Shown: positions 4,578 to 47,047 of the stretch, piece by piece
Position numbering within the stretch: position 1 is the first letter of the stretch
Layout: every line of letters starts with the position of its first letter
Source: Vampirovibrionales bacterium
GTDB lineage: Bacteria; Cyanobacteriota; Vampirovibrionia; Vampirovibrionales; JAJTHC01
Assembly: GCA_035285025.1 (NCBI GenBank)
Contig: JAYKHY010000036.1
Coordinates: 1 to 64,000 of the forward strand
Direction: 5' to 3'
DNA: 64,000 nucleotides
The notes under the pieces: model-generated
The model's input: only the letters and a program-made list of their open reading frames with translations
The model's database searches: none
Told to the model about the DNA's origin: nothing
Made by a program: the position numbers and the translations under genes

Positions 4578-7500
4578 ATGTCTGAAAATATTTCAGATGC
4601 TAAGTTAGGTACGTTAAAGGTCGGTAACCAGACCCAGGTCACGACGGCCAAGGGTCAAAAAGTTTTAGTGAACACCGCTGACCATGAATCCGTGTTTGCC
4701 AAGCAGAACGGTGACGAAACCCTTGTGAGCGTTTTTAGCTCTGATGACAAGGCCAAAATTTGTCATACCAAGCCCAGCCGTGAACTTTCGATTCAAGGCA
4801 AAAAAGGCAATACCAAGGTGTACGCCGCGTTAAAACCGGACGAGCAAAAAAAACTGTATAACACCTTTAAAAAAACGAATCCCAATGATGATAGCAGCCT
4901 AACGCTGGCAACAATGTTGGGTGGAAAAAAGCAGGATGAAGATGCCTCTTTAGACAAGGCACAGAATAATTCAAGCGCGTTGCAGCAAAAAGTTCAGGCG
5001 ATGCTGGATACGTCCAAGCACAGCGTGCCCTTCCAGAATGAAAAAGGCCTGAACAAGGTGCAGCAGCAATTTGAGCAAGGCAAATTATCTTTGCCAGAAG
5101 CTGAGGCAAAAGCGAAGCAACTAGAAACAAAAAAGGTCGGGCTTTTAGGCGGTGCGCTGCGTGGGGCGTCGTTGGGCGTTGTGCGTAACGAAGGCACGCA
5201 AGAGGGCCTTGATAGCATGGCTGGCGACATGGCCGGTAGCATGGTTAGCGGCTTAGGGGTAAATGCATTGGTTATAGCTGGTGCAAGTAAATTATCTAAA
5301 GGGGCTAGCGGTAAAAAGAAGTTGTTACTGGCAGGCACGGTAGGTATTGGCTCTTCGATTGCCTCGGGGGTGCGTACCTGGCAGGATTCGCTTGCCAATG
5401 ATGGCAAAGTTGATGCAGCCGAAGGCTGGAACATTGCACTGCAAGCAGGCTCTGGGTTTATTGGCGGCGCTGCCGGCACTTTGCTTGGGGCGCATGCGGG
5501 CTCTAAATGGGGGCTACTGGGGGCTGCAGGTGCCGACGTGGCTTTGGGCAATGGGCTGGGTTTAGGTAGCCTTGCGGTTAGTAACCAGATAGCCGGACGT
5601 GATAATTTGCTTGAAGGCTGGGAGCAAACCGTTGCAGCCTCGACTGCGGGCTCCTTGGTGGGCACAGGCATTGGGGTCGCGAGTAATCATTTTTCGGGTA
5701 AAGCGCCTGAATCCAACTCTGAAGTTAATAACCGTGATGGAGTGACCGTTCCTGAAGGAAGCTTTGATGATAAACCGCAAGCGAGTCCCTCTTCAGATTC
5801 GACGCCGATTAAAACGGGAGCATGGACTGAACAAGAAACTAAGGAAATTGAAGCCAGTACAAAAAGACTAGAAGAACTTAATGAAAGACTTCGTAACAGG
5901 AATAAGTCCAGCTTAAATGATGCTGACACTGTCTCTGACCCATGGGACGGGGCTGAACCTTCAAAAAGTTCACCGGACGTTAAAACGCCTAAGCCGGAAG
6001 CGAGTGCGCCAAAACTGTTGCCGCCAGCCGGCGAGCTGAGGTTAAACGGGCGTGAGCCGCTTTTAAGTGCGCTCACCAAGGCGGATCCTAAAAGCGCAAC
6101 CAGCGCCCTAAAAATTAACCCTACGTTCGATCTTTCAACGCAAGAGGGTCGCGCCGCCGCTTATCTGTCTGTTTTAAAGGATGTTGATCCGTCTGATTCA
6201 TCTAAGCCGCCAACCAGCGGAAAACTGAGCCAGGCGGGCGATGCACTGGTCGAGATTGCGCGCAATGAGGGTAATACAAACGAGGAAATTCGGACCTTAC
6301 TAACAAAAGCAAAAGACTATTACGAACGCGCGGGCAAGTTGGCGCAAAACGAGCAAACAATCCCTGGCGCGCAATCCGGTGGCAGTGACCTAGAGGCGCC
6401 AGCCAATAATGATATTGCGGCGCAGAACCTGAAAAAAGCGCGCGAGCTTAAGCGTTTGTTAAACGAACCGGTTGAATGGCAGAATGACCCGAAACAAGCG
6501 CAGCTTGAGCCCACCACGATTGATGTGCCCTATGAGGAAATTCCGGGCAACGTGCTCGAGGCCTCAAACGCGCAGGTTGAGCGCATACAAGCCACACCGG
6601 ATGCAGCCTTTGGTGCAGACGAAGCGGATACCGTGATTGCGCAACTAGAGCAAGCGCACGCCAAGCAGCACGCGCTGCAGGAAGGTAAACGCATTGCAGG
6701 CCTGCCCGAGCAAACGCAGCAAAATCTGCTGAAGCGGGCGCAACAGCAATCGCCCGAAAAAAATCTACGCACTGTAGCCGATCTGATTCGGGAGGTTAGC
6801 GAGCCAAAATCTAACGAGGCTGGTCAAGCTTTGCTGCCTGGCGCGCCGTCGCTGATGACCAGCCGCTCGTTGGTGCAAGAGCTTAGCAATGATTTGGCGG
6901 TAAAGCTCCGTCAGGGGCAGCTTTCGCCCCAAAAAGCCATCGAGTTGTCGGGCGCGCTGATTCGCCGCGCCGAGTCTCGGCCGGCCTACCGGATTGCTGA
7001 CAGTGACCTGCTGCCTGTTCGGCAATTGCAGGCTGACGCGATTCAGGCCAAACTAGGCGAGCTTGAGGCGCAAGCTCGTGCTAATGGCCCCAAAACGCGC
7101 TCGTTGCCGCCCGCGCAGTGGGATAAACCCATGCTCAACAGCGCCATAGATCAGTTTATTGCCGCGCAAGAAGCCAAGCTAAAGCTGAGTCCTAGCGACC
7201 CAACGGCAACAAAAGCCATTGCCGATGCCGAGGCGTTCAAGCGCAAGCTTAATCACGCTAACTTAAACGCTGCAAATGATTCGAGCGCGCTTGCGCTCAC
7301 GGAAAGTGATCACGCGACGTTGCAGGCATTGATTGACCATAAGCGCGAGGCACGCAATGTGAACGTCACGGAAAAACTCAACCAAGAGATTGATCATCTG
7401 CGCAGCATTGAGCGCTACGGCAGCCCAGACCCTGCACGGGCTACGGCGCTTGAACCGGGCGTGCTGGACGCGCCCACGTTGCACGGGTATTTGGATGCGT

Positions 7501-9809
7501 TTATTGGTGCTAAAGAAGCACAACGCACCGCCGGCGTAGACGTGCCACAAGCCAATCTGGCGATTCAGCAGGCAAAGGCGTTTCAGGATAAGCTTATTCT
7601 GGCAACTGGCGATGAAGCTGCGATTCAAGAGTTAATTAAACGCTTAAAATCAGATATTGAGCCTTCACGTAATCCGCAAATCAATCGGCAAAGTTCGACG
7701 ACACACAAGCAAAATATATTAGAGCTTATTAACTTAGCAGAAGCAACACAAACAGCCATTATTAAAAATGAGCCGCGCCCTATTGCGGACGTTGATACGC
7801 TGCTGGAACAAAGCGGCTTGGCCAAAGCCGCCGCCCAACAGCCCGTGCCCGAAGCCAACTGGAGCCAGGTGCCCGATGCTGAGCGCCCCAAGGTGTTTCA
7901 GGATGGCTACAACACGCCCGGCCCGAACGTGATTCAGGATTGGTGGAAAAACCGAGGCAATAAACCAGCCGAAGTCGCCACGGCAAAAGATACGCCCCCT
8001 GCTGATGTCTCTGACGCGACGCCAAAAGCGCTGCCTGAAAAACAGGGCTTTAACTGGCGCAATCCGTTTGGCTGGAATAAAAAACAAGCGCCCGCCGTTG
8101 CGCCTGAGAGCACGCCGCCAACGCCAGAGCCCTCAACGGAGTCTGCATCAACTTACGAGGCACCCAACCCTTGGGATGATGCGCCTCCGGCCTCGGATCC
8201 AACAATACCGGTTAACGCAGAAGTCGTGAGCGAAACGGTTCCTTCAACTGCGACCGCGAGTGAGTCTGACCTACCCCAACTGCCGCCTGCAGCGGGGTTA
8301 GATTGGTCGCGGCTGAGAAACCCCTGGCAAACAGTCAAAAACGATATTCAAGCGACGACCGCGACGCTGCGCGGCTTAGGCGACTCAGAATTGGGCTTTA
8401 TTGAGCGTAACAGACAAAACGCGCTAGCGCTGGATGCCGCTGGCGCGCCTAAAGCCGCCGAAGCGGTGGTTACAGAAAGTTCAGCCGAGCCCGCGCCCGC
8501 TAACGTTGAGCCTGCGCCTACGGCCGAGCCTGTGCCACAGGCCGCGCCCAGCGCGTCGCGATTCCCGGAAGGGTATCAGGCGTCGGGGAAATCGGGTAAG
8601 GCAATGCTTGCGTTGGATAAAGCGCTCAAGATTCAGGCCGATGGCATCTCGATGATGCCCAGCTTGCGCCTGACCAAAAATTACGAGGCGGCGTCTAAAG
8701 GCCTAACGAAGCTAGGTGTGAATCTTTCGGCCGATGAGTTAAGCGCGGCGGCGAAGAAAAACCAGCTGAGCGAGGTTATTTTTAACGAGCTTTACGCCAA
8801 AAAATACCCGCAGGCAACTACGGAGATTAACAATAGTGGCGCGCCTTCGCAAAATATAGCGGCTGAGCCTGTCAAGGCCGAGCCGGAGTCTATCTCCGTA
8901 CCTGGCACACCTGTCGCTGATGAGACTCATACAGAGTCTTTTCAGCCAAACACACTCATAGGGGATCTTCTTAATGAAAACAAGCCAGAGCAAGCATTGG
9001 AAGTAGCTCGACAAGCTTTATCGGTAGAAACCGATCCTCAATCTGTTGATCACTTAAATCAGCGCATTCAGGAAGCAAACCTACAAATCGAGGCCCAACA
9101 AAAAGTGCAGGCTGAAGCTGATGCAAAAGAGCAAGAAGCCAAGCAAAAAGCTCAGGCTGACGCGGCTGAAAAAGCGCAAGTGGCTGCAAAACAAGCCCAA
9201 ACAGAAGCTTCCGAAAAAGCGCGCCTAAAAGCCCCACAAAAAACGCAAGAGGCTAAATCGCATCAAGTTTCGCGTGCTCAAGCGGCCGAACAAATTTATC
9301 AGCAACTCTTGGCTGACTTTGATACAAAAATAGCGGAAGCGTCAGAGTCTGGATTTATCAATAAGGATAAAATTGCTCAAGATAAAGCGAGATTTGAAAA
9401 TTCAATGTCTTTGGACCAGTTGAAAGCAGCCGTTAAGTCTCCTGATGCCTTTGCCTCTTTTGTAGTGTCTCAAGATAATGATCGCGTTAACGGCGGGCGT
9501 AATATTTTTGCGGCCTATCAAGCGATTTTGGCTAACTCACAGACCAAAATACCATTACCCGAGCCCGTTGCAGATATTCTTGTGCGCAGGCTTACGCTAA
9601 GTAACCCGACTGCAAACAGAGCTGATCTTAAACAACTTTTGATGCAAGACGCAAATTTAACCCCAGAGACGCTTGAACAGTATTTTAAAAAGTATGTAAA
9701 CTCTATTGAATCAAGTGAGGATGGCATTGCGTGGAAAGCAAGTGAGGGTGGCTCACGCAGCATCTATGAGATGAATAGTTTAGACGAGTCGCCTGCGAAT
9801 GTGCTTTAA
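4578..9809 (+). CDS. Giant hypothetical protein (1743 aa) with a Gly-rich hydrophobic segment and long coiled-coil/low-complexity regions
   Basis: Uninterrupted 5.2 kb ORF with a GAGGGTGGG RBS. Residues ~190-340 form a glycine-zipper-like hydrophobic region (GGxxG / AGxxG). Downstream are Pro/Ala/Glu-rich and KAQAD coiled-coil tracts. Confidence 0.8.
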   Translation: MSENISDAKLGTLKVGNQTQVTTAKGQKVLVNTADHESVFAKQNGDETLVSVFSSDDKAKICHTKPSRELSIQGKKGNTKVYAALKPDEQKKLYNTFKKTNPNDDSSLTLATMLGGKKQDEDASLDKAQNNSSALQQKVQAMLDTSKHSVPFQNEKGLNKVQQQFEQGKLSLPEAEAKAKQLETKKVGLLGGALRGASLGVVRNEGTQEGLDSMAGDMAGSMVSGLGVNALVIAGASKLSKGASGKKKLLLAGTVGIGSSIASGVRTWQDSLANDGKVDAAEGWNIALQAGSGFIGGAAGTLLGAHAGSKWGLLGAAGADVALGNGLGLGSLAVSNQIAGRDNLLEGWEQTVAASTAGSLVGTGIGVASNHFSGKAPESNSEVNNRDGVTVPEGSFDDKPQASPSSDSTPIKTGAWTEQETKEIEASTKRLEELNERLRNRNKSSLNDADTVSDPWDGAEPSKSSPDVKTPKPEASAPKLLPPAGELRLNGREPLLSALTKADPKSATSALKINPTFDLSTQEGRAAAYLSVLKDVDPSDSSKPPTSGKLSQAGDALVEIARNEGNTNEEIRTLLTKAKDYYERAGKLAQNEQTIPGAQSGGSDLEAPANNDIAAQNLKKARELKRLLNEPVEWQNDPKQAQLEPTTIDVPYEEIPGNVLEASNAQVERIQATPDAAFGADEADTVIAQLEQAHAKQHALQEGKRIAGLPEQTQQNLLKRAQQQSPEKNLRTVADLIREVSEPKSNEAGQALLPGAPSLMTSRSLVQELSNDLAVKLRQGQLSPQKAIELSGALIRRAESRPAYRIADSDLLPVRQLQADAIQAKLGELEAQARANGPKTRSLPPAQWDKPMLNSAIDQFIAAQEAKLKLSPSDPTATKAIADAEAFKRKLNHANLNAANDSSALALTESDHATLQALIDHKREARNVNVTEKLNQEIDHLRSIERYGSPDPARATALEPGVLDAPTLHGYLDAFIGAKEAQRTAGVDVPQANLAIQQAKAFQDKLILATGDEAAIQELIKRLKSDIEPSRNPQINRQSSTTHKQNILELINLAEATQTAIIKNEPRPIADVDTLLEQSGLAKAAAQQPVPEANWSQVPDAERPKVFQDGYNTPGPNVIQDWWKNRGNKPAEVATAKDTPPADVSDATPKALPEKQGFNWRNPFGWNKKQAPAVAPESTPPTPEPSTESASTYEAPNPWDDAPPASDPTIPVNAEVVSETVPSTATASESDLPQLPPAAGLDWSRLRNPWQTVKNDIQATTATLRGLGDSELGFIERNRQNALALDAAGAPKAAEAVVTESSAEPAPANVEPAPTAEPVPQAAPSASRFPEGYQASGKSGKAMLALDKALKIQADGISMMPSLRLTKNYEAASKGLTKLGVNLSADELSAAAKKNQLSEVIFNELYAKKYPQATTEINNSGAPSQNIAAEPVKAEPESISVPGTPVADETHTESFQPNTLIGDLLNENKPEQALEVARQALSVETDPQSVDHLNQRIQEANLQIEAQQKVQAEADAKEQEAKQKAQADAAEKAQVAAKQAQTEASEKARLKAPQKTQEAKSHQVSRAQAAEQIYQQLLADFDTKIAEASESGFINKDKIAQDKARFENSMSLDQLKAAVKSPDAFASFVVSQDNDRVNGGRNIFAAYQAILANSQTKIPLPEPVADILVRRLTLSNPTANRADLKQLLMQDANLTPETLEQYFKKYVNSIESSEDGIAWKASEGGSRSIYEMNSLDESPANVL

Positions 9810-10458: not shown

Positions 10459-10722
10459 ATGGCACAGAAGAAAGGCGCGGGTTCTACAAAGAACGGGCGC
10501 GATAGTCAAAGTAAACGTCTGGGCGTCAAAAAATTTGGCGGTCAGCAGGTGCTTGCAGGCAATATTCTGGTGCGTCAGCGTGGCACCAAGTTCCACGCGG
10601 GGGCCAATGTGGGCATTGGTAAAGATGACACGTTGTTTGCCCTGACCGAAGGCGTTGTGAGCTTCCAGAAGCAAAAAACCCGCTGCAAAGTGCACGTGTT
10701 GCCGGTTGCAGAAGCGGTTTAA
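10459..10722 (+). CDS. rpmA: 50S ribosomal protein L27
   Basis: [24 protein letters not shown]... is the canonical L27 sequence. Confidence 0.95.
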
Positions 10723-10744
10723 CGCCATAAGCAAACGTTTAAAA

Positions 10745-10780
10745 CCCCTGATGAGGCAAGAAGCACGTCAGGGGTTTTTT
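10745..10780 (+). terminator. Rho-independent terminator after rpmA
   Basis: GC-rich hairpin CCCCTGA...TCAGGGG followed by TTTTTTG. Confidence 0.7.
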
Positions 10781-10798
10781 GTGGTTAATTATGCCACC

Positions 10799-10839
10799 TG
10801 ATTGGCCAGTTGGCCGCAAGCGGCGTTAATATCTGCGCC
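10799..10839. repeat. 41-bp direct repeat, copy 1 (displaced ancestral 3' end of rlmN)
   Basis: Identical over 41 bp to ~13058-13098 inside the rlmN 3' end. Read on the minus strand it would encode ...GADINAACGQLANQ-VA-stop. Confidence 0.85.
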
Positions 10840-13057
10840 GCTCGCTAGGGATGTTAGCTAGCTGGACGGTGAAGAATCATTGGCCGCGGGCGATTGCAGG
10901 CGGTTAATGATACCCGTCTTGATTTGATCTCGAAGACCTCCATTATCGGTTTTTGCGCCTGATTCTGCGGCTGATAGCATGCCGGTCAGCTTTTCGGAAA
11001 GAAGCACGCTCATCAGGCCTTCCATCAGGTTGCCGCCATCGGAGCCCCCCATCGAAATTTTGGGGACAACATCGACTTTAGATTGCTCAATGGCTTCAGC
11101 AAAGCGCTGCATTACCTGTTGCACCAGCTGGAATTGCGGCCCGCCGTAAGCGGCCACTTGTTCTTCTATGGCCATGGCTTGCGCAATCCCGACGCGGGCG
11201 GCGCGCTAGGCTTCGGCGTCTGCAATCAGCTTGATTTTTTGCGCGTCGCCATCGGCCACAATGCTAATACGGCTTGCTTCGGCTTCTGCAAGCGCTTTAA
11301 TTTGTTGCGCCTGTTGCTGCGCGCGCGCCAGATCGGCTTTACCTTGGTTACTTTGGACGTTAATACTGATTTCTGACTCGGTCAATAGGGTTTGCTGCTT
11401 GGCCCGGGCCTCGGCCTCGCGGAGTTCTTTCTCTTTGACGGCCGCTTTTTCTTGCCGGTTGTAGGTTTCCACCTGTTCCTCGGCCACTTGTCTGGAGCGC
11501 AACTGATTTAGGATCATCTCGATTTGCTGATCGCTCTCTTTAGAGCCTGGCGTGCCAATGAGTACTTCTTCCAGCTCAAGATTATAGTGCGCAAAGCGCT
11601 CGCGCATCTCGTTAAGTGATTGCTGCTGGATAAAGCTTCTTTCCTGGATCAGCTGGATTAAGGTTCTGGTTTGGCCCACGTTTTTAAAATAGGCGGCCAC
11701 CATCGGGTCCAGCGTTTGCTCAACCAGGCGCTTAATATCGCCAAAACGTTGAATGACCAACGGCGCTTTACGGTAGTCAATATGGATAACCACCGACAAC
11801 GGCAGCGTCGGTTCAAACGCATCCTTGGTAATTAAATTGACTTCAGACAAGTTTTCATCCAGTCGGTGGGTCCCGGCCTGGTTGCTGATCCATTTTAAAA
11901 TAATGTTGGTGGTTGGCACCATAATTATTTTGCCGGCGTAGGTGTTAAACGCGTATTTACCAGGCAATAACGGTAGATTCCAAACGCCTCGATAGCCTTT
12001 GCCGACCATCTCGCCATGGTTATAATCTTTGCCGCTCAGGTCTTCGCCAATCTCGCCTGTATACGAGACGACCACGCCGGCATTGCCAACCTCTACAATT
12101 GTTTTAGGGATCATCTCGACGGTGGCAAACAGACGGTTAATGTAATATGTACCCTCGACCAGCACTTGCAGCTGGCGGCCGCGTTTTCCACCGGCAGCAA
12201 GGAATTTGTCCGGATCCTGAAAGTTGTTATGGTAAACCTCGGGCACGGTTTGGTCGTCGCCCACCGTTTGCGCAATAATTTCGTTAGGCTCTAACGAAGG
12301 ACCGTCGTGTACCGTAACTATGCCAACCAGATCGTCAGCGTCTTTAATTACAATTGGCGAAAACCCGTTACGCTCTAGAATGAGCTCTCTCATCCGCTCG
12401 AACATCTCGACTTCGTTTATGTCCAATGGTAAATAATATAAATGATCTTCCGTCAGAATCACGAACTGGGCCAGGTTTATGGCATAGGTGCCTTCGCGCA
12501 AGATTAGTCTTTGTGGGCCTTTTTGCCCACCAGCTTTAAGAAACACTTCTGTGTCCTGAAAATCTTTTGCAGAAATATTGGCCGCTAGCGCTTGCGTAGA
12601 AGGTAGCGAATGGCCGTCTCGGGCAAAGACGTAGCCAATTTTACCCTGAGGAATGGTGACCAGGGGCATAATATGCACCCGGTATTGCAGTGGCACCAAA
12701 AAGTGCCACCCCCCCCTTAAAATATGAGGTTGGAACCCAGCCTCGCCACCAAGGGCAATAAGTCCAGATTTAACAGACCCATTAAGGCTAAAAAACTTTT
12801 CGACAATGCCCACCCTGGCGTTTGGAATATAGCGAACCGTTAATGCGATTAGACTCAGCACAAGTACCGTGAGGATTGTTAGATAGGGATGAGCCAACAC
12901 AAAATCAGTCATTTGACATAGCGCTCCTGTTGCTGTTAATACCTTACGGGCGGGGGATATGGCGCTATTAAAGCAAGGCTCGAAGCGTTCTGCATCCTAT
13001 ATCAAGAGGCTTGCTCAAAATTAGAAAAAAGTTTGCTATGCAACATTCGAAGAGTGT
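10840..13057 (-). mobile_element. 2.2 kb islet inserted at the rlmN 3' end, carrying a flotillin gene and bounded by 41-bp direct repeats; no integrase
   Basis: Bracketed by exact 41-bp duplication of the rlmN terminus. Islet GC is lower (~45-50%) than the backbone. The gene-proximal copy provides a new rlmN tail (NQHSSNVA-stop versus NQVA-stop). Confidence 0.45.
10858..12912 (-). pseudogene. Flotillin / SPFH (band 7, YqiK-like) gene interrupted by an in-frame TAG
   Basis: The 568-aa SPFH/flotillin ORF (11206..12912) ends ...ADAEA-TAG. The same frame continues RAARVGIAQA-MAIEEQ... into ORF 10858..11175. Both ORF ends are congruent mod 3, so this is one gene with a premature stop at ~11206-11208. 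Confidence 0.6.
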
Positions 13058-14226
13058 TGATTGGCCAGTTGGCCGCAAGCGGCGTTAATATCTGCGCCAC
13101 GCTCCAGGCGAACCGTCACTTTACGTCCGTAACCGCTCACAATCTCTCGAAACGTCTCGATGGCTTTAGGGCTCGAGCGTTTTAAGGCTTCGCCGCCCGG
13201 CGGCAGCAATTGTGCCGCAATCGGGTTATACGGAATCAGATTCACGTTGCATTTAAGGCCTTTTAACTGCTGCGCCAGCATGTGGGCTTGGGTCGGGCTA
13301 TCGTTAATGCCCGCCAGCATAATGTATTCAATCGTCAGGCGCCTGCGGGTGGTGTTTACATAGTGGTGCAGGGCCGGCAGCAGCTCTGCGATGGGGTATT
13401 TGGCGTTAATCGGCATAAACGCGCTGCGCGTGGTGTCGTCGGGCGCGTGGAGCGAGACGGCCAGCGTGACGGGCAGGGCTTCTTGTGCCAGTCGATAGAT
13501 GCCCGGTACTATCCCTGCGGTCGAGATAGTCATGCGGCGCATGCCGACTTCGGCCGACTGGTTGAGCAGCATCATGGCCGGAATCACGTTATCCAGATTC
13601 AGGAGCGGTTCGCCTTGGCCCATAAACACGATGTTTCTGACTTCTGCTTGCGCTAAATGTTGCACGTACAGGTATTGGTCCACGATTTCGGCGACGGTGA
13701 GCTGGCGTTTAAAGCCCAGTTTGGCTGTGGCGCAAAAGTGGCAGCCAACGGCACAGCCGGCTTGGCTGCTAATGCACGCCGAGAGCGTTCCGCGCTCCTG
13801 GTAGGGCATAAGTACAGATTCGATTCTATAGGGCGACGCGTTTGCCGGCGATGCTGCACCAGTCGCGGGGCCTGGCAAATTTGCTGGCGACGCCAGTTCA
13901 AACAAAAACTTTTGCGTCCCGTCCCGGCTTTGCTCGCGGGTGTGTAACGTTAGGCAGCCGATTTGCGGGAATTTTTCGGCCAACTTGGCCCGAGTGCTTT
14001 TTGCCAGATTGCTCATGGCCTCGTAGTCTCGAACGCACTTGACATAAAGCCATTGATGCAATTGCTCAGCCCTGAAAGCCGGTTCTTCCATCGATTGCAT
14101 TAAGGCTTGCAGGCTTGTCAAATCATGCCCAATCAAGTAGCTGGGTTCGGGTCGTATCTCGTGTTGCGCTTCGGGTTGGCGTTTTGGACTGTCCGGTTTC
14201 ATCATAGCCTTATCAGTATGCGGCAA
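13036..14226 (-). CDS. rlmN: 23S rRNA (adenine2503-C2)-methyltransferase RlmN (radical SAM)
   Basis: CAVGCHFC radical-SAM cysteine motif and overall RlmN/Cfr family similarity. The C-terminal 14 codons lie in the 41-bp repeat. Confidence 0.9.
   Translation of the reverse strand: MPHTDKAMMKPDSPKRQPEAQHEIRPEPSYLIGHDLTSLQALMQSMEEPAFRAEQLHQWLYVKCVRDYEAMSNLAKSTRAKLAEKFPQIGCLTLHTREQSRDGTQKFLFELASPANLPGPATGAASPANASPYRIESVLMPYQERGTLSACISSQAGCAVGCHFCATAKLGFKRQLTVAEIVDQYLYVQHLAQAEVRNIVFMGQGEPLLNLDNVIPAMMLLNQSAEVGMRRMTISTAGIVPGIYRLAQEALPVTLAVSLHAPDDTTRSAFMPINAKYPIAELLPALHHYVNTTRRRLTIEYIMLAGINDSPTQAHMLAQQLKGLKCNVNLIPYNPIAAQLLPPGGEALKRSSPKAIETFREIVSGYGRKVTVRLERGADINAACGQLANQHSSNVA
13058..13098. repeat. 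41-bp direct repeat, copy 2 (functional rlmN 3' end)
   Basis: Exact match to 10799-10839. Confidence 0.85.
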
Positions 14227-32919: not shown

Positions 32920-33424
32920 GATGTATGTTAAATGCGGTCATGCGTAACGTCAGGATAAATGCAGGCCTGCGCTCTGGGCTTAAATGCTACCGAAAAAATG
33001 GGTTAACACTTGAGCGGTGGTGCGGGCTGAGTACTTTTAATAAGCCAACTGAAGCTGGATTTGTGCGACAGAATAGACCAAATGTAACGGTTTTTTAATG
33101 CAGCGTTTAAAAGCCTCCAGAATCTGGGCACGCGTTCGACACTCATAACACAGGGAAACATTAAACGTTGACTCGCGCCGAGTCGTTCAAATAAATGCGT
33201 GGTGGCGGCGCAGGGTTAATTTTGCGAGTGCGTTTATAGTGAATAACTCGCGCGGGTTTGGGTCTCGCGGCTGGGTGATCGTCAGTTTTTGTATAAATTT
33301 ATTGCGCGGGTTTTTTCGGGTCAGGCTTTTTAGGCAAAAAGCGACAGGAGTAGATGTGGTTTTACCCATTAATTCATCGCGTGCGTATACCCCTAATGTT
33401 CAGCTTTCGGCTCAATTTCGGTTT

Positions 33425-34579
33425 ATGTCGCAAGGTGATTCCGCCGAGGCGAATGCCGGCGTTTCGGCTTTATCAAAGGCGTTAAACACCAATGCGTTTA
33501 ATCCTTTGGCCGGAAGCTCAAAATCGAGCGGTTTTTCGGGCGTGCGTTCGGCCCGCCAAGCGAATGCGCTGCAGCTAACGCAGTTACAATCCGAGCTCGC
33601 CGAGACGCTAACCGATCCGCTTGCTTCGCGGGAAAATAGTTTGAGCAAAACCTCGGTGCTCGCCACAGAAGCGGAAACCGAGACGGTAGAAACCGCTGCC
33701 GTTGATACGCAGGCGTTAGAAGCCCTGCAAGCCGAACTCAAGCAAGTGGGTCAGCAGCAGCAAAGCCTTAACGGCGCGTTATCTCAGGCGCAGGCTCAGT
33801 TGGCGGCCTATACGCAGCCTGTACCCGCTAAGCCCGAACCCGCCAAGCCTGAAGAGCCTACAGAAAAACCCGAACCCGTCAAATTAGAGCCCGCCAAGCC
33901 TGAAGGGTCTACGGTAAAACCTGAGCCCGCTACGCCCGAGCCCGCCAAGCCCGAAGGGGCTAAGCAAAAGCCCGAGTTGCCCGAGAAAGCGCCTAAAAAG
34001 GGATTGGCCTTAGGGTTAGAAAAACAGGTGCAAGCTGAACCGAAAGCCGAGGCTAAAAACGAGCCTAAACTTGAAGCCAAGGCTGAAGTAAAAGCTGAGG
34101 CTAAAAACGAGCCTAAACTTGAAGCCAAGGTTGAAGCCAAGGTTGAAGCCAAGGTTGAAGCCAAGGCTGAAGTAAAAGCCGAAAAAGCCACCGAAGTTAA
34201 AGCTTCGCCGAAAAACGACGGCTTAAACGCGCTGAAAGATACTTTGGCTAGTTTGAATCAGCAATTGGGGGGCTTGGCTGCAAAACAAGCTTATTTAACC
34301 GAGCAGCGCGCCATTGTTTTGGGTAAAACCCAAATCCGTACCGAAACTGTCCTGGTGACGCGTGAGCACACGCAATATTCCAGCGAATCCAGCCTGGGGG
34401 GTGGTGCTTCGGGCAAGGCGCTTTCGGTGGTATTAGGCAAATTGGTTGCGCATTACGCGCACGATTTGCGCGATAGCGCCGAGGCCTCGAAAAATACGAC
34501 CACACAGTTTTTATCTACGCCCGCCTCGGAAGGGTTTGTGAGCGAGTTAAAACACGAAACGCGAAGCTTGCTGGTTTAA
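33425..34579 (+). CDS. Hypothetical coiled-coil/repeat protein (PEPAKPE and EAKVEAK tandem repeats)
   Basis: Start at MSQGDSAE. Internal 12-bp and ~45-bp tandem DNA repeats encode Lys/Glu/Ala/Val repeats. Confidence 0.6.
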   Translation: MSQGDSAEANAGVSALSKALNTNAFNPLAGSSKSSGFSGVRSARQANALQLTQLQSELAETLTDPLASRENSLSKTSVLATEAETETVETAAVDTQALEALQAELKQVGQQQQSLNGALSQAQAQLAAYTQPVPAKPEPAKPEEPTEKPEPVKLEPAKPEGSTVKPEPATPEPAKPEGAKQKPELPEKAPKKGLALGLEKQVQAEPKAEAKNEPKLEAKAEVKAEAKNEPKLEAKVEAKVEAKVEAKAEVKAEKATEVKASPKNDGLNALKDTLASLNQQLGGLAAKQAYLTEQRAIVLGKTQIRTETVLVTREHTQYSSESSLGGGASGKALSVVLGKLVAHYAHDLRDSAEASKNTTTQFLSTPASEGFVSELKHETRSLLV

Positions 34580-43000: not shown

Positions 43001-43222
43001 CCGGCTGCGGAAGATCAGGCGACCGACCGGGCGCACCGCATTGGCCAGACCAAAACCGTGTTTGTGTACCGCCTGATTGCCAAGGGCACGGTGGAAGAAA
43101 AAATTATGGCCCTGAAAGAGCGCAAGCGCGATCTCGTGGACTCGATCATTGCCGCAGACCGCAGCATGGGCAAGTTTCTCACGCTGGAAGATCTCAAAGA
43201 GATTCTGTCGCCAGGGTTTTAG
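40013..43222 (+). CDS. SNF2-family helicase with N-terminal SWIM zinc finger
   Basis: CxC...CKHAVAVAL SWIM motif, SNF2 ATPase motifs (ILADDMGLGKT, DESQNIKN) and helicase C domain. The 3' terminal 69 bp are duplicated downstream. Confidence 0.9.
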   Translation: MPDVLIAHEPVLNFAAVKAMAPAGAWRRGYNYFKEDRRIQKIGLSETGVEAKIKGNFKKAYTTTLKFNDPTCSEYPFEPDCSCPLNEPWCKHAVAVALTAAENNLWEAYWQLPIEDDMAADEALDDFEGRYQFWLDENRKPKFFAIRALDRRNGKAVYQSEQVLKKALSQPGGINEAQRREMSIFQALVKLDQLNSGGAQGWFVVPKSKLGELLPLLSQLEEVRDKDTGARLVFHSDPLKLQLSVNASMAGNVQVALHWLRERPRDVYPLEELTLYSRDLPWGRYKHHLFPLKNTLNQLPGHLTKATFSDIRDADGGKFMYEELPRLRKLVEVEGTEQLDKLRLEKRPPKKILSLELIDPASLRLRLSLSFSYDGVEVPFSKSAPETPYVMVVKKKEEQLYWVKRDLREEHAAYKKLMESRLEPLQGSYFQAEGDDAIDAANLAESKLFGKDWETKTVGPHSLEALKVSKHPLKIRAEIDFSKDSVDSFEAEIDCTIGKQRMDLDDVQNHLMQGKKYFYLSGAGFVEIPLADILQFGKTIQAFDAVTVGRDRYKIQTFKAGLIAELVDQGVKLKMTAKFQKFWDVIASTSDMEELDVPENVHAELRPYQKRGFNWLWFLYSYGLNGILADDMGLGKTLQALTVLQQAKNTHGQRPSLIVCPTSIVFNWQNEIARFTPDLKVINLTGSNRYGLYKKIAEADIVITSYALLRRDINALKNYPMRYVILDESQNIKNWQSQTALAAKSLQADHRLALSGTPIENRLSELWSVFDFLMPGFLYEPEVFRQKYTVPIEERGNRDAERRLKKQVFPFILRRMKQDVAKDLPPKIENVAYCELTDAQRQRYLDILEETRNEVFNAINKDGVQGSQRSIFTALTRLRQLCCDPRLLSDELSGGLKESGKFELMKDLLQEIVAENGRVLLFSQFVEMLKLIRAWLDKVGIKYEYLTGETKDREGAVNRFNSDASIPIFLISLKAGGTGLNLTGADYVMHYDPWWNPAAEDQATDRAHRIGQTKTVFVYRLIAKGTVEEKIMALKERKRDLVDSIIAADRSMGKFLTLEDLKEILSPGF
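43154..43222. repeat. 69-bp direct repeat, copy 1 (current helicase 3' end)
   Basis: 66/69 identical to ~44700-44768. All differences are synonymous (TTT/TTC, CTC/CTG, TAG/TAA). Confidence 0.85.
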
Positions 43223-43231
43223 AAGGGGCTC

Positions 43232-43303
43232 ATTTTAAGATAAGGCGTTATCGTAAAATGAAACCTGTTCTTATTTTAAGATAAGGCGTTATCGTAAAAT
43301 GAA
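43232..43303. repeat. Two 31-bp direct repeats (ATTTTAAGATAAGGCGTTATCGTAAAATGAA) 10 bp apart, each with a GATAA-N4-TTATC inverted repeat, immediately upstream of fic
   Basis: Exact duplication read from the sequence. Likely an operator pair or junction relic. Confidence 0.7.
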
Positions 43304-43313
43304 GGAATAGGTT

Positions 43314-44489
43314 ATGAAAAGAAGTCTACAAGGACGATTTGTCAAAACTTCTTACGCTGGAGAAGTTGTTCAAGCATTTCTACCTAATCCGCTACCCAGC
43401 ATGGAAGATATTCAATGGACAGCAAATTTACGCACAAAATTTGATAAAGCGTTGGTCTGTTTGGGTCGGCTGGATGCCATAAGTAGAATTTTGCCCAGAC
43501 CCGATTTGTTTATTTTTACTTACATTCATAAAGAAGCACTTTTATCTTCAATAATAGAAGGTACGCAATCTTCTCTTTCTGAATTAATATTGTTTGAGCA
43601 AGATGCCTATTCAACGAATATTGCAAAAGAGTTTGATGATCTAACAGAAACCAGTAACTATATAAAAGCGTTTGATCATGCAATTAAACGTTTAACAGAA
43701 GGATTTCCGCTAAGCTTAAGATTGATTTGCGAAATTCACGAGCAATTGCTGGCCTCAGGTCGTGGAAGTCAAAAAAATCCTGGAGAGTTCAGAAGAAGTC
43801 AGAATTGGATAGGGGGAACTAGACCAGGGAACGCTTTTTTTGTTCCGCCACCTTTTAAAAACGTGCCTGAGCTAATGGGGCAATTGGAAGATTTTTTGCA
43901 TGACAAATTTTTTGAAACGCCCATTTTGCTAAAAGCAGCCTTGGCTCACGTTCAGTTTGAAACCATACATCCTTTTTTAGATGGCAATGGACGTTTAGGT
44001 CGCCTCTTAATTACATTGCTTTTGTATAACGATAAAATTTTATCTCAGCCTATTTTGTATTTGAGCTTATATTTTAAACTTCATCGTACACGCTATTATG
44101 AATTACTTAATATAGTTCGGTATGAAGGTGATTGGGAAGTTTGGCTGGATTTCTTTGCTGAAGCAGTTATTTACTCAAGCGAGCAAGCTGTTAACGATGC
44201 TCATCGACTTTTAACCTTGTTTGAACAAGATAGATTAAAGATTTCTGGTTTAGGAAGAGTCTCTGAATCAGTAAAGCTCGTTTTTAATACGTTTGAAAAA
44301 TTTCCTATACAAATAGCTAAACGCGTCACTAATATTACTCAATTAACACCTGCTACTGTAAATAAAAGCTTAAAGGAACTCGTACATCTCAACATTTTAC
44401 GGCAACAAGGAGTACATAACAGACATCGTATTTACGTCTATTCTAAATATATGGACATTTTAAATGAAGGAACTGAGTTAAATGAATAA
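43314..44489 (+). CDS. fic: Fic-family protein (class II, N-terminal inhibitory motif) with C-terminal winged-helix domain
   Basis: HPFLDGNGRLGR Fic active-site motif. SSIIEG matches the (S/T)xxxE(G/N) inhibitory motif N-terminal to the Fic core. Confidence 0.9.
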   Translation: MKRSLQGRFVKTSYAGEVVQAFLPNPLPSMEDIQWTANLRTKFDKALVCLGRLDAISRILPRPDLFIFTYIHKEALLSSIIEGTQSSLSELILFEQDAYSTNIAKEFDDLTETSNYIKAFDHAIKRLTEGFPLSLRLICEIHEQLLASGRGSQKNPGEFRRSQNWIGGTRPGNAFFVPPPFKNVPELMGQLEDFLHDKFFETPILLKAALAHVQFETIHPFLDGNGRLGRLLITLLLYNDKILSQPILYLSLYFKLHRTRYYELLNIVRYEGDWEVWLDFFAEAVIYSSEQAVNDAHRLLTLFEQDRLKISGLGRVSESVKLVFNTFEKFPIQIAKRVTNITQLTPATVNKSLKELVHLNILRQQGVHNRHRIYVYSKYMDILNEGTELNE

Positions 44490-44699
44490 GATATACTATT
44501 TGAAATTTTATTTACAGGCTAAATAATCTCTCCATGTGCACGAGCTGCGGGGCAGCGTTTGAGCACCGTGAACGAGCTGTGTATAGTAAAGTGCAAGGGT
44601 CTGAGGAGCTTTAGAGAGGATTTCTCCTCAGTTCTTTTAACAAAACAGGGTATAGCTTAACATTTCTGCGATTAAAGCACCACTCACACTCTTTGAGAT

Positions 44700-44768
44700 G
44701 CAGACCGCAGCATGGGCAAGTTCCTGACGCTGGAAGATCTCAAAGAGATTCTGTCGCCAGGGTTTTAA
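44700..44768. repeat. 69-bp direct repeat, copy 2 (displaced ancestral helicase 3' end)
   Basis: See copy 1. Confidence 0.85.
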
Positions 44769-45152
44769 TAGGGTGTTTTCTTTTAGGTAAAGCTTGATGC
44801 TGTGTAATAACGTAGTCTAATGCTTAGGCCTTGATCTTTTTTTGAAAATTTTTTTCAGCATCAAAAAACTTAGTAGTTTTTTAACTTGCCTTTGCCTTGT
44901 AGGGTTGCTATGCTACTACAGCACCCGTTATAAATATAATGGTTGTAGGGCTTAAGAACCCTGAAGCAAGTGGTTAGGTATCTGACCATCAACTAGATGC
45001 CACCTTCCGGTTATGCCGGGAGGCGGCGTTTTATGTCCAGGCTTTTAGCTAAAAAGCGCCGCGGCCGTCTTGTTTCGGTTTCTTAACTCCCGGCTCCTCT
45101 AAATTTAAGAGGGGCTTTCGTGATTTTAAGAACGTGAAGCAAGGTCAAAATA

Positions 45153-46097
45153 ATGAGCACGCCAGCAGTGCTATTTATATTTTTTAGGCGTCAAGGCGTG
45201 GCGCTTAAAGTGTTTGAACGCATTGCCGCTGCGAAGCCAGCAAAGCTTTATTTGGCGTGTGATGGCCCTAGGGTTCAGCGCCCAGATGAAGCTGAAGCCG
45301 TTTTTGCACTCAGGGAGCTTATTTTAAGCAGAATCGATTGGCCTTGCGAGGTTTTTACTAATTTTAGCGATACTAATGTCGGGTGTGCGATTCGAATATC
45401 TTCTGCAGTGACTTGGCTTTTTGAGCATGAATCTGAAGGCATTATTCTTGAAGAAGACTGTATGCCAGATCCTTCATTCTTTGACTTTTCTCGCGTGATG
45501 CTTGAGCGCTACCGCGATGATGCTAGGGTAATGCATATTGCTGGGTATAACTGTTTTGACCCAAAAAAAACATATAGCGATGGGGATTATTTTTATACAC
45601 GTTCGCCATTGATTTGGGGCTGGGCTGGCTGGCGTAGGGCTTGGCAACATTACGATTTAAAAATGTCGACGTATCCGGTTTATCGTCAATCAAACGTATT
45701 TAAGTTCTACAAGCATCAGCCAGCTTTTAAGCTGATTGGCGCGTTGAACGAATATTTAATGAACCGCGTTTATCAAGAAAATAACGGTGTTAAGCCAAGA
45801 ACCTTTGCTTATCCGTGGGCGTATGCAGTTGCTATTCAAAACGGGCTTTGTATTAACCCACGCGTTAACTTAATTACTAATTTGGGGGTAGGGTCAGATG
45901 CGACGCACCAGCGTTTAGCAATAGGAGAAGATGTTAACCGGCCTACAGCGGCGTTAACAAGCTATAACGCGCCCAGTGTAATGCTGCCCAATGCCGATGC
46001 CGAACGCTATATGTATCAAAAACATCACGAATATTCTGTGAGCGGGTTGTTTAAAAAAGTGATTACTAAATTCTGGCTTAAATTAAAGGCCGCTTGA
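45153..46097 (+). CDS. Putative glycosyltransferase (HlpA-like / GT-A-like)
   Basis: Weak family-level resemblance to capsule/LPS-locus glycosyltransferases annotated as hemolytic protein HlpA-like. Low GC relative to the backbone. Confidence 0.45.
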   Translation: MSTPAVLFIFFRRQGVALKVFERIAAAKPAKLYLACDGPRVQRPDEAEAVFALRELILSRIDWPCEVFTNFSDTNVGCAIRISSAVTWLFEHESEGIILEEDCMPDPSFFDFSRVMLERYRDDARVMHIAGYNCFDPKKTYSDGDYFYTRSPLIWGWAGWRRAWQHYDLKMSTYPVYRQSNVFKFYKHQPAFKLIGALNEYLMNRVYQENNGVKPRTFAYPWAYAVAIQNGLCINPRVNLITNLGVGSDATHQRLAIGEDVNRPTAALTSYNAPSVMLPNADAERYMYQKHHEYSVSGLFKKVITKFWLKLKAA

Positions 46098-46116
46098 GCA
46101 AATGGATTAAGCAACA

Positions 46117-46686: not shown

Positions 46687-46738
46687 GTTAGTTGTTTCGT
46701 TGATTTTCCGTGGACAAGGATGTCTGGAGGATGAATGA

Positions 46739-46921
46739 ATGAGCCCTCAAAAGTGGAATCCTGATAGTGAAGAGGCGATGCTTCTTGAGTTATTTAGGCA
46801 GGGTGGAATTACTAAAATAGAGATGATTAGACGGCTTTATGCGCTTCAATCGCCGCTGTATCAAGAGATTATTTCTGACTGGAACTTGTTAGCATCAGAA
46901 ATTGAACAAATCCACGCTTAG
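46739..46921 (+). CDS. Hypothetical small protein (60 aa)
   Basis: Short ORF between the acetyltransferase gene and the tRNA. Weak support. Confidence 0.3.
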   Translation: MSPQKWNPDSEEAMLLELFRQGGITKIEMIRRLYALQSPLYQEIISDWNLLASEIEQIHA

Positions 46922-46960
46922 TGTGCATTGCATACAATTGATTGCGTGTTTAGTAAAATT

Positions 46961-47047
46961 CGGAGCGGGGGAGATTCGAACTCCCGGTCGGCTTTCACCG
47001 ACACAGACTTTCCAGGTCTGCACCTTAAACCACTCGGACACCGCTCC
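46961..47047 (-). tRNA. tRNA-Ser (anticodon GGA), long variable arm
   Basis: Minus-strand sequence GGAGCGGTGTCCGAGTGGTTTAAGGTGCAGACCTGGAAAGTCTGTGTCGGTGAAAGCCGACCGGGAGTTCGAATCTCCCCCGCTCCG. Acceptor stem pairs, CT-GGA-AA anticodon loop, TPsiC GTTCGAATC, no encoded CCA. Confidence 0.85.

What the first reader, a model, noticed from the sequence alone, without database searches (positions are those of the whole stretch)
10799..13098. Flotillin islet inserted at the 3' end of rlmN, bracketed by an exact 41-bp duplication of the gene terminus, with no integrase
The 41 bp TGATTGGCCAGTTGGCCGCAAGCGGCGTTAATATCTGCGCC occur twice, at ~10799-10839 and ~13058-13098. The second copy is the functional end of rlmN (…GADINAACGQLANQ-HSSNVA-stop). 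The first copy lies 2.2 kb away next to the rpmA terminator and would encode an alternative C-terminus (…LANQ-VA-stop). Between them sits only a lower-GC flotillin (SPFH) gene and its promoter. This is the architecture left when an element integrates into the 3' end of a gene while carrying its own replacement 3' end. The two different tails imply the incoming copy came from another lineage. The islet is far too small to encode a recombinase, so it is either a decayed integrative element, an element mobilised in trans, or the product of homology-facilitated illegitimate recombination during natural transformation.
Basis: seen in the sequence. Interest (0 to 1): 0.72.

Follow-up and report, generated by a model that had tools for sequence, protein, structure and literature searches.

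The report
Integrase-less flotillin islet in rlmN end
A single flotillin gene, recently inactivated by a stop codon, was inserted into the tail of the essential-type gene rlmN in an uncultured Vampirovibrionales bacterium; it brought a replacement gene tail and displaced the old one 2.2 kb away, which is the familiar scar of an integrating mobile element, here without its recombinase.

Summary
The 41-mer occurs exactly twice, at 10799-10839 and 13058-13098, with 0 matches expected by chance. Copy 2 completes rlmN (…NQHSSNVA-TAG). Copy 1 is an orphan rlmN end (…NQVA-TAA) lying 7 nt from the terminator shared with rpmA.

Between the copies lies one YqiK-type flotillin gene.

The two rlmN tails differ only by silent changes and an in-frame 12-nt indel. 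They therefore look like two functional alleles, which supports an imported replacement end.

A second islet of the same design sits in the window. A low-GC Fic gene is bracketed by a 74-nt, 95% identical duplication of the 3' end of an SNF2 helicase gene (43154-43227 and 44700-44773).

None of the 47 ORFs scanned is a recombinase. No close relative exists in any collection (nearest RlmN 72%), so no empty site could be examined. The 41-mer is not a dispersed repeat.

Best reading: an attL/attR-type integration scar of a non-autonomous, CIME-like islet. A Campbell-type RecA crossover is the main rival. This is a known kind of feature and of modest interest.

The parts
10741..10781 (.). Bidirectional intrinsic terminator. 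It has an A-run, a 9-11 bp G+C stem and a T-run. It serves rpmA (+) and whatever minus-strand gene ends here (originally rlmN, now the flotillin gene).
   Evidence: Sequence. The minus-strand DNA fold is -13.4 kcal/mol, z = -4.2.
10789..10839 (-). Displaced (orphan) rlmN 3' end. It consists of 41-mer copy 1 (10799-10839) plus the tail CAG GTG GCA TAA, encoding GADINAACGQLANQVA*.
   Evidence: tblastn with the RlmN C-terminal peptide, E = 9e-7.
10840..10857 (-). 18-nt junction between the flotillin stop codon and repeat copy 1 (gene sense CTAACATCCCTAGCGAGC). This is the right end of the islet.
10858..12912 (-). YqiK-type flotillin (SPFH/Band_7) gene of 684 codons, complete at both ends but with one nonsense codon.
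   Evidence: Pfam Band_7, 4e-16. It is 75-80% identical to full-length 675-697 aa homologues. Alignment.
11206..11208 (-). In-frame TAG replacing a Glu (GAG) that is invariant in 10 homologues. The 115 downstream codons remain fully conserved, so this is a very recent nonsense mutation.
   Evidence: The same base is present in Logan unitig L001.
12913..13035 (-). Islet 5' region upstream of the flotillin gene. The roughly 65 nt proximal to the ATG are partly conserved with the closest homologue's upstream region (TTGCTTTAATAGC ... GGAGCGCT..ATG).
   Evidence: No strong sigma-70 consensus match was found.
13036..13057 (-). Imported rlmN tail: A CAC TCT TCG AAT GTT GCA TAG, encoding (Q)HSSNVA*. 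This is the left end of the islet and begins with ACACTCTTCGA.
13058..13098 (-). 41-mer copy 2, the in-gene copy. It encodes the most conserved RlmN C-terminal motif, G.DI.AACGQLAN.
   Evidence: 120 homologues.
13036..14205 (-). rlmN (389 aa from the ATG at 14205; NCBI MEB3245206.1).
   Evidence: Pfam RlmN_N plus Radical_SAM. 100% hit to P0001.
43154..43227 (+). Second islet, repeat copy A. It is the functional 3' end of the SNF2 helicase gene (40013-43222), ending ...LKEILSPGF-TAG.
43228..44699 (+). Second islet interior. It holds two 34-nt palindrome-containing tandem repeats (43229-43303), a Fic/DOC gene (43314-44489, GC 0.36, GC3 0.27), and a 210-nt 3' spacer ending ACACTCTTTGAGAT.
44700..44773 (+). 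Second islet, repeat copy B. It is the displaced SNF2 3' end, 95% identical to copy A. The differences are TTT/TTC, CTC/CTG, TAG/TAA and one base after the stop.

Best explanation
The feature is an integration scar of attL/attR type. A 2,259-bp DNA recombined with the chromosome by one reciprocal crossover inside the last conserved 41 bp of rlmN. That DNA carried a flotillin gene with its own 5' region and its own allele of the rlmN 3' end (the 41 bp plus ...HSSNVA-TAG).

The imported end now completes rlmN. The resident end (41 bp plus ...VA-TAA) was pushed 2.2 kb downstream, where it still sits just in front of the terminator it shared with the convergent rpmA.

Neither the islet nor the window encodes a recombinase. 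The islet is therefore non-autonomous. It is either what remains of an integrative element (CIME-like) or a cassette integrated by a site-specific recombinase encoded elsewhere.

The event is recent. The orphan copy has 0 changes in 41 nt, and the cargo gene has one nonsense mutation and no further decay. Recombination between the two 41-bp copies would delete the islet precisely and restore rlmN ending ...NQVA.

Shown: the architecture, the allele-like tails, recency, the absence of a recombinase in the window, and recurrence of the design at a second gene. Inferred: the direction of the event (insertion rather than another rearrangement), and that the strand exchange was made by a site-specific recombinase.
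For: - The repeat is exact and unique. Both copies end in plausible RlmN C-termini, and 120 homologues show variable tails after ...GQLAN[QK], including QH.., QVAS and KVQ...
- Tail differences are only silent or in frame, and 0/13 versus 3/4 third positions differ, p = 0.006.
- The 72% relative differs at about 9 of 41 nt in the same segment. So 41/41 identity means recent common origin or a recombination constraint.
- The orphan end sits directly in front of a bidirectional terminator.
- The closest flotillin homologues (75-80%) lie in four unrelated contexts, and similarity is limited to the CDS and about 65 nt upstream. This shows the gene moves as a single unit.
- Synteny with the nearest relatives (tgt-hyp-rlmN) ends exactly at the rlmN stop.
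- The Fic gene at the SNF2 3' end has the same design and clearly foreign composition, GC3 z = -7.7.
- Of 47 gene ends and 47 gene starts, only these two 3' ends are duplicated.
- Literature: integrative elements usually target a site in a conserved gene and preserve its function (PMC7192596 abstract). rlmN is a documented target of a Streptomyces AICE (PMC9513070). CIMEs are elements that lost their integration genes but kept attL/attR (PMC5704250).
Against: - No integrase is present, and no integrase pseudogene or other element gene. The cargo gene fills the islet almost completely (123 nt upstream, 18 nt downstream), which is an odd end-point for random decay, and it has happened twice.
- The two islets use unrelated repeats, so two different site-specific recombinases, or one unusual one, would be needed.
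- A fixed-point site-specific crossover does not explain why all 41 nt are identical while the tails are diverged.
- No empty site was observed. The nearest relatives have pyrF, not rpmA, downstream of rlmN.
- No other rlmN locus among 82 sampled has a duplicated end.
- Flotillin composition is hardly foreign.
Confidence: 0.5

Rival explanations
1. Campbell-type insertion by the host's own homologous recombination. A circular DNA carrying a related allele of the rlmN 3' end plus the flotillin gene underwent a single RecA-dependent crossover in the only stretch of perfect identity long enough for it. The circle could be a popped-out copy of the same repeat-cargo-repeat unit from a related strain, or a circularised fragment. 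The crossover duplicated the homologous segment on both sides of the insert. No dedicated recombinase is involved.
For: - This explains the sharp 41-nt block of perfect identity lying in the most conserved codons of the gene. It also explains the block's flanks: heterology on one side, and a 12-nt indel with diverged tail on the other.
- The SNF2 repeat likewise contains a 41-nt perfect block within 95% identity.
- It needs no integrase, and none was found.
- It works at any gene, which fits two unrelated targets.
- Single crossovers of circular molecules that duplicate part of the homologous locus were the majority outcome in an E. coli HFIR assay (PMC3240628).
Against: - 41 bp is close to the minimum for RecA-dependent exchange (own knowledge), so such events should be very rare.
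- The model needs a circular donor that already joins the gene end to the cargo, which only moves the origin problem to another genome.
- A donor diverged at 3 of 4 tail third positions would not be expected to match at 13 of 13 positions in the 41-mer by descent alone.
Confidence: 0.27
2. Homology-facilitated illegitimate recombination during uptake of linear DNA. The rlmN part of the donor fragment served as the homologous anchor. The far end joined illegitimately just upstream of the recipient's own 41-mer, so the recipient's gene end was retained as a duplicate.
For: - The junction between the islet's right end and copy 1 has a possible short microhomology with the rlmN sequence upstream of copy 2 (GAGCG; 6 of 12 flanking bases match).
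- No recombinase is required.
Against: - HFIR is expected to give a deletion of recipient DNA, not a duplication (PMC3240628).
- It gives no reason for donor and recipient to be identical over exactly the duplicated 41 nt yet diverged in the tail.
- It would have to produce the same tidy gene-end duplication twice.
Confidence: 0.07
3. Assembly ambiguity. The true state would be an empty site (rlmN ending ...NQVA next to rpmA) plus a 2.26-kb circular or tandem molecule carrying one 41-mer and the flotillin gene. Alternatively, a graph path was wrongly threaded through a 41-nt node in a metagenome assembly.
For: - The genome is a MAG.
- At k = 31 the graph is ambiguous. The Logan unitig stops 30 nt into the repeat on both sides.
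- The integrated state and the circle-plus-empty-site state give the same graph.
Against: - Reads and k-mers longer than 41 nt resolve a 41-nt repeat, and the deposited contig runs through both junctions.
- The flotillin segment is bounded by at least 30 nt of the repeat at both ends in an independent assembly, so the duplication or a circle is real in either case.
- A 2.26-kb circle carrying only a nonsense-mutated gene is implausible as a replicon.
- The second islet has imperfect repeats (95%), which cannot arise from graph collapse.
Confidence: 0.06
4. Local rearrangement with native cargo. Here rlmN(...HSSNVA)-flotillin is the ancestral arrangement of this lineage. The orphan 51-nt rlmN end arrived with, or was left by, a different rearrangement that brought rplU-rpmA next to it, for example loss of a second rlmN copy.
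For: - The in-gene tail begins QH like the three nearest relatives (QHQ*, QHVAN).
- Flotillin GC3 is typical of the genome.
- Synteny downstream of rlmN is not conserved in any relative.
Against: - It requires loss of a whole second rlmN leaving exactly the last 51 nt, with 41 of them identical to the surviving gene.
- It does not explain the parallel Fic/SNF2 case, where the cargo is clearly foreign.
- No flotillin gene lies next to rlmN in any of 82 loci or in the five flotillin contexts outside this lineage.
Confidence: 0.08

Closest known systems
CIMEs (cis-mobilizable elements): decayed ICE/IME remnants that keep attL and attR at the 3' end of a target gene (Streptococcus; PMC5704250)
   Same: Direct repeats made of the target gene's 3' end flank foreign DNA. 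There are no integration or transfer genes, and the target gene stays intact.
   Different: Described CIMEs are recognisable remnants of ICEs or IMEs, several kb long, in Firmicutes. Here the islet is a single gene with almost no spare DNA, nothing links it to an ICE or IME, and the host is a Vampirovibrionales. Mobilisation by accretion was not tested.
Integrative genetic elements targeting the 3' end of conserved protein genes, including an AICE inserted in rlmN of Streptomyces (PMC7192596, PMC9513070)
   Same: The same logic applies: the element supplies a replacement gene end, and the displaced end remains as the distal repeat. rlmN is a documented target.
   Different: Those elements encode their own integrase, and the Streptomyces rlmN repeat is 11 nt. 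Here there is no integrase. The exact repeat is 41 nt and stops before the stop codon, followed by diverged allele-like tails.
Campbell-type single-crossover integration of circular DNA through short homology (seen as the dominant by-product in E. coli HFIR assays, PMC3240628)
   Same: The insert is flanked by a duplication of the homologous segment, and no dedicated recombinase is needed.
   Different: The experimental duplications were 109-950 bp and came from plasmids. A natural single-gene circle with 41 bp of homology is hypothetical.
Minimal mobile elements of Neisseria (variable gene cassettes between conserved flanking genes, exchanged by homologous recombination; PMC3787668)
   Same: Single-gene or few-gene cargo without mobility genes, sitting between conserved genes.
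   Different: Minimal mobile elements are exchanged by double crossover in both flanking genes and leave no duplicated gene end.

Membership tests
Integrative element at the 3' end of a protein gene (attL/attR scar) | Direct repeats derived from the target gene's 3' end bracket the insert, in the same orientation | tested here: met
   41/41 identical copies at 10799-10839 and 13058-13098. Both are on the rlmN coding strand.
Integrative element at the 3' end of a protein gene (attL/attR scar) | The target gene's reading frame is preserved by element-borne sequence | tested here: met
   rlmN is complete at 389 aa. Its tail ...NQHSSNVA* falls within the range of homologue tails.
Integrative element at the 3' end of a protein gene (attL/attR scar) | An integrase (tyrosine or serine recombinase) gene lies next to one att site | tested here: not met
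   The islet holds only the flotillin gene. No recombinase family was hit in 47 window ORFs by Pfam or NCBIfam.
Integrative element at the 3' end of a protein gene (attL/attR scar) | An uninterrupted (empty) site exists in related genomes | tested here: inconclusive
   No relative closer than 72% RlmN identity was found. The 41-mer is absent from JGI contigs, and the proteins form singleton clusters. Distant relatives have rlmN-pyrF.
Integrative element at the 3' end of a protein gene (attL/attR scar) | The cargo has foreign composition or phyletic pattern | tested here: inconclusive
   Flotillin GC z = -2.1 and GC3 z = -0.95. Homologues at 75-80% identity lie in unrelated contexts and phyla. 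For the second islet (Fic) this is clearly met, with GC3 z = -7.7.
CIME (cis-mobilizable element) | Retains attL and attR but lacks integration and transfer genes | tested here: met
   Repeats are present and no mobility genes were found.
CIME (cis-mobilizable element) | Derived from an ICE or IME, with recognisable remnants or related intact elements | tested here: not met
   There is no remnant of any element gene. No related element was found, and flotillin and Fic homologues sit in ordinary chromosomal contexts.
CIME (cis-mobilizable element) | Excision or mobilisation by an incoming element's integrase (accretion) | not testable with these tools
   This needs reads, other contigs of the genome, or an experiment.
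Campbell-type homologous single crossover | The insert is flanked by a duplication of the shared homologous segment, with a perfect block long enough for RecA | tested here: met
   A 41-nt perfect block is present, and the second islet has a 41-nt perfect block inside 74 nt at 95% identity. A circular donor is not testable.
   There are only 2 copies in 64 kb, even at up to 3 mismatches, and none in JGI metagenome contigs. The sequence is coding sequence for the RlmN C-terminal motif.
Integron gene cassette | An attC recombination site at the 3' end of the cassette | tested here: not met
   No structured RNA/DNA family hit appears in 10700-13200 at E <= 1 apart from one noise match. Only 18 nt lie between the flotillin stop and the repeat.
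YqiK-type flotillin (SPFH/Band_7) | Band_7 domain and a full-length protein of about 680 aa | tested here: inconclusive
   The Band_7 domain is present (4e-16) and identity to homologues is 75-80% over 684 codons. However, an in-frame TAG at codon 569 truncates the product to 568 aa.

The most novel reading that the evidence does not exclude
Vampirovibrionales may carry a so far undescribed class of minimal, non-autonomous single-gene cassettes. Each would carry a replacement 3' end of a conserved host gene and insert by a crossover in a perfect block of about 41 bp. The catalyst would be one trans-acting recombinase or the host's own recombination system. A possible shared signal is the motif ACACTCTTYGA. 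It occurs only twice in the window, each time directly abutting a repeat copy of one of the two islets. Two such cassettes in 64 kb would imply dozens per genome.
Probability: 0.1. Interest if true: 0.7.

Novelty: new member of a known kind. Interest (0 to 1): 0.35.

Why it matters
If the reading is right, this is a clean and very recent example of gene gain at the 3' end of a conserved gene, in a little-studied, uncultured predatory lineage sister to the Cyanobacteria. A second example lies 30 kb away. It shows that integrase-less, single-gene islets with att-like repeats occur outside the Firmicutes, where CIMEs were defined. It also offers two natural markers (41-mer and 74-mer junctions) for following gain and loss of such islets in metagenomic reads. 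It does not open a new kind of system unless the recurrence and the shared junction motif prove to be genome-wide.

Tried and rejected
- **Empty-site search.** The exact 41-mer gave 0 hits in JGI metagenome contigs.
- **RlmN scan of GTDB genomes.** The source genome was absent. Only one Vampirovibrionales locus appeared, at 61% identity, and the rest were distant.
- **Exact-protein look-ups.** RlmN (both start choices), RpmA and SNF2 were not on record.
- **Is the rlmN 3' end a recurrent target?** Among 82 rlmN loci from many phyla, none has a second C-terminal motif that could be an rlmN remnant within 10 kb (the one extra [AS]ACGQL match, in L072, lies upstream in an unrelated sequence context). 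None has rplU/rpmA adjacent.
- **Flotillin as a recognisable mobile cassette.** The four other flotillin contexts (loci L004-L010, L091) share no flanking repeats in the three checked and no conserved non-coding ends beyond about 65 nt upstream.
- **Close Fic relatives.** None was found. The best is about 60% identical in the protein collection and 43% in JGI, with none in IMG/VR.
- **TAG reassignment as an explanation for the in-frame stops.** Rejected. rlmN and SNF2 end at TAG where homologues end, and the displaced SNF2 copy has TAA at the same codon.
- **REP or dispersed repeat.** Rejected.
- **Target-site duplication by a transposon.** Rejected. The islet has no terminal inverted repeats, and the two repeat copies continue into different allele-like tails rather than ending as a simple duplicate. 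From own knowledge, 41 and 74 nt are also far longer than known target-site duplications.
- **Structured RNA or attC inside the flotillin islet.** None found.
- **Shared core between the 41-mer and the 74-mer.** Only 5-mers are shared.


Full report
**Observation.** The 41-mer TGATTGGCCAGTTGGCCGCAAGCGGCGTTAATATCTGCGCC occurs at 10799-10839 and 13058-13098 and nowhere else in the window, even allowing 3 mismatches. Shuffled sequence gives 0 matches. On the minus strand, copy 2 is the in-frame end of rlmN (13036-14205), which reads ...RLERGADINAACGQLANQ-HSSNVA-TAG. Copy 1 reads GADINAACGQLANQ-VA-TAA and has no gene body in front of it.

**Source and reliability.**
- RlmN, the SPFH protein and the Fic protein are 100% matches to proteins of one NCBI MAG annotated as Vampirovibrionales bacterium (contig of 68,590 bp; MEB3245206.1, MEB3245205.1, MEB3245232.1). 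Each is a singleton cluster among about 15 billion proteins.
- An independent k=31 assembly of run SRR13425446 contains a 2,278-bp unitig. It equals the islet interior plus exactly 30 nt of the repeat at each end. The flotillin segment is therefore bounded by this sequence on both sides in the reads.
- What that graph cannot tell is whether the segment is integrated or is a circle beside an empty site. Only reads longer than 41 nt can decide this. The deposited contig shows the integrated form.

**Anatomy, in rlmN sense.**
- The order is: rlmN body, 41-mer, tail 2, flotillin upstream region, flotillin gene, spacer, 41-mer, tail 1, terminator, convergent rpmA and rplU.
- Tail 2 is A CAC TCT TCG AAT GTT GCA TAG. 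It is followed by 123 nt upstream of the flotillin gene, then 684 flotillin codons, then an 18-nt spacer.
- Tail 1 is G GTG GCA TAA. It is followed after 7 nt by a strong bidirectional terminator at 10741-10781 (fold -13.4 kcal/mol, z = -4.2). The convergent rpmA and rplU follow.
- The orphan end therefore sits where a minus-strand gene converging on rpmA would end.

**The cargo gene.**
- It has a Band_7 domain and is 75-80% identical over its whole length to YqiK-type flotillins of 675-697 aa from several phyla.
- It carries an in-frame TAG at 11206-11208 where ten homologues all have Glu (GAG). The 115 codons after it are still fully conserved. The same base is in the Logan unitig.
- TAG is a true stop in this genome. 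rlmN and the SNF2 gene end at TAG where homologues end, and the displaced SNF2 copy has TAA at the same codon.
- Composition is only mildly atypical, with GC z = -2.1 and GC3 z = -0.95 against 40 window genes.
- The closest homologues lie in four unrelated neighbourhoods: SnoaL; ABC transporter/RND pump; rhodanese/ankyrin; P-II/Amt. Nucleotide similarity is confined to the CDS plus about 65 nt upstream, and no flanking repeats were found in the three contexts checked.

**What the two rlmN ends say.**
- The 41-mer encodes the most conserved C-terminal motif of RlmN (G.DI.AACGQLAN). After it, the tails of 120 homologues vary freely, for example QHQ*, QHVAN, QVAS, KVQ.... Both tails here are plausible RlmN ends.
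- Aligned, they differ by CAA/CAG, an in-frame 12-nt indel, GTT/GTG and TAG/TAA. Every difference is silent or in frame, as expected of two alleles that each evolved under selection.
- By contrast, 0 of the 13 third-codon positions inside the 41-mer differ (Fisher p = 0.006). The 72%-identical relative L002 differs at about 9 of these 41 nt.
- The 41 nt are therefore a sharply bounded block of identity between two otherwise diverged gene ends. This is the signature of a crossover site, or of later homogenisation, and not of simple duplication or chance.

**A second islet of the same design.**
- A whole-window repeat scan and a systematic test of 47 gene ends and 47 gene starts found exactly one other duplicated gene terminus.
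- The last 74 nt of an SNF2 helicase gene (40013-43222) recur 1,546 bp downstream at 95% identity (43154-43227 and 44700-44773).
- The two copies bracket one Fic/DOC gene (43314-44489) with strongly foreign composition (GC 0.36, GC3 0.27, z about -8).
- Again the differences are silent (TTT/TTC, CTC/CTG, TAG/TAA). Again the gene-proximal copy ends in TAG and the displaced copy in TAA. No 5' ends are duplicated.
- The design is therefore recurrent in this genome and is tied to gene 3' ends.

**Recombinases and comparative evidence.**
- No integrase or other recombinase family was hit in any of 47 ORFs of the window.
- No genome closer than 72% RlmN identity exists in the protein collection.
- The 41-mer is absent from JGI metagenome contigs, and the source genome is not among the GTDB representatives scanned.
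- In the nearest relatives, the upstream synteny tgt-hypothetical-rlmN is conserved. Downstream of rlmN they have pyrF and a metallo-beta-lactamase gene, with neither flotillin nor rpmA. Synteny therefore breaks exactly at the rlmN stop, but the predicted ancestral rpmA/rlmN convergence is not seen at that evolutionary distance.
- Among 82 rlmN loci from many phyla, none has a second copy of the C-terminal motif that could be an rlmN remnant within 10 kb, and none has rplU/rpmA nearby.

**Interpretation.**
- The best-supported reading is an attL/attR-type integration scar. Incoming DNA carrying its own rlmN end recombined within the 41-bp block, completed the gene with the imported tail, and displaced the resident tail.
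- This is how integrative elements that target conserved genes behave (PMC7192596). rlmN is a documented target (PMC9513070). Elements that kept their att sites but lost integration genes are known as CIMEs (PMC5704250). I put this at about 0.5.
- The weak points are these. No trace of any element gene remains. The cargo gene fills the islet almost exactly, and this has happened twice. Two unrelated targets would need two recombinases. A fixed-point site-specific crossover does not explain perfect identity over all 41 nt next to diverged tails.
- The main rival, at about 0.27, is a Campbell-type single crossover by the host's homologous recombination in the only perfect block long enough. This produces exactly such duplications (PMC3240628) and explains the sharp block. 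It needs a circular donor that already joins gene end and cargo.
- Homology-facilitated illegitimate recombination, assembly ambiguity and a local rearrangement with native cargo are each below 0.1.
- In every model the present structure is recent. It can also be lost precisely by recombination between the repeats, which would restore rlmN ending ...NQVA.

**Unexplained details.**
- ACACTCTT occurs only twice in the 64-kb window. It appears once as the first bases of the imported rlmN tail, directly abutting copy 2 (ACACTCTTCGAAT). It appears once directly abutting the displaced SNF2 copy (ACACTCTTTGAGAT). My rough chance estimate is 0.002-0.02, and the rest of the genome could not be examined.
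- The longest perfect block in the SNF2 repeat is also 41 nt.
- These points keep open a more novel reading, a family of minimal cassettes served by one trans-acting or host system, at about 0.1.

**Verdict.** This is a new member of a known kind, an integrase-less, att-flanked islet at a gene 3' end. Interest is modest and would rise only if read mapping or the full genome shows active excision or many such cassettes.

Noticed in passing
window 43154-44773: A second gene-3'-end duplication. A 74-nt repeat at 95% identity, derived from the SNF2 helicase gene end, brackets a single low-GC Fic/DOC gene (43314-44489). The gene-proximal copy ends in TAG and the displaced copy in TAA, as in the rlmN case.
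   Followed up: partly
window 11206-11208 (- strand): In-frame TAG in the flotillin gene replaces an invariant Glu (GAG). The downstream 115 codons are still conserved, so this is a fresh pseudogene or truncated product. NCBI annotates only the 568-aa part.
   Followed up: yes
window 13045-13057 (- strand) and 44686-44699 (+ strand): ACACTCTT occurs only twice in the window. Each occurrence directly abuts a repeat copy of one of the two islets (ACACTCTTCGAAT and ACACTCTTTGAGAT). This could be a shared junction signal or coincidence.
   Followed up: partly
window 43229-43262 and 43270-43303: Two tandem 34-nt copies (97% identical), each containing the palindrome CATTTTA...TAAAATG, lie between the SNF2 stop and the Fic start. 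They look like paired operator or binding sites.
   Followed up: no
window 45014-45103 (+): A sub-threshold Rfam match to sRNA-Xcc1 (34.2 bits against a gathering score of 53; E = 0.036 for the whole window). This family is discussed together with integron cassettes in the literature. The sequence is an imperfect palindrome of about 80 nt (DNA fold z = -2.5), just downstream of the displaced SNF2 end.
   Followed up: partly
window 44774-47048: Two further low-GC ORFs (45153-46097 with no family hit; 46117-46686, a hexapeptide acyltransferase; GC about 0.44, z about -5) run up to tRNA-Ser(GGA) at 46960-47048 (-). The whole stretch 43223-46960 may be a composite variable region. No tRNA-fragment repeat was found.
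   Followed up: partly
window 43181-43221 / 44727-44767: The longest perfectly identical block inside the SNF2 repeat is 41 nt, the same length as the rlmN repeat. This is probably coincidence.
   Followed up: no
window 4578-9809 (+): A 1,743-aa ORF with no Pfam hit lies immediately upstream of rplU. It has low-complexity, Ala/Pro/Gln-rich segments.
   Followed up: no
window 33818-34182 (+): In-frame coding repeats (three 51-nt units, then 12-nt periodic units encoding a Lys/Ala/Glu/Pro-rich segment) lie inside ORF 33239-34579, which has no family hit.
   Followed up: no
window 10840-10860 (- strand): The orphan rlmN end is in the same reading frame as the flotillin ORF, separated only by the flotillin TAG stop and 6 codons (…SSPSS*LTSLASGADINAACGQLANQVA*). 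I regard this as a 1-in-3 coincidence.
   Followed up: partly
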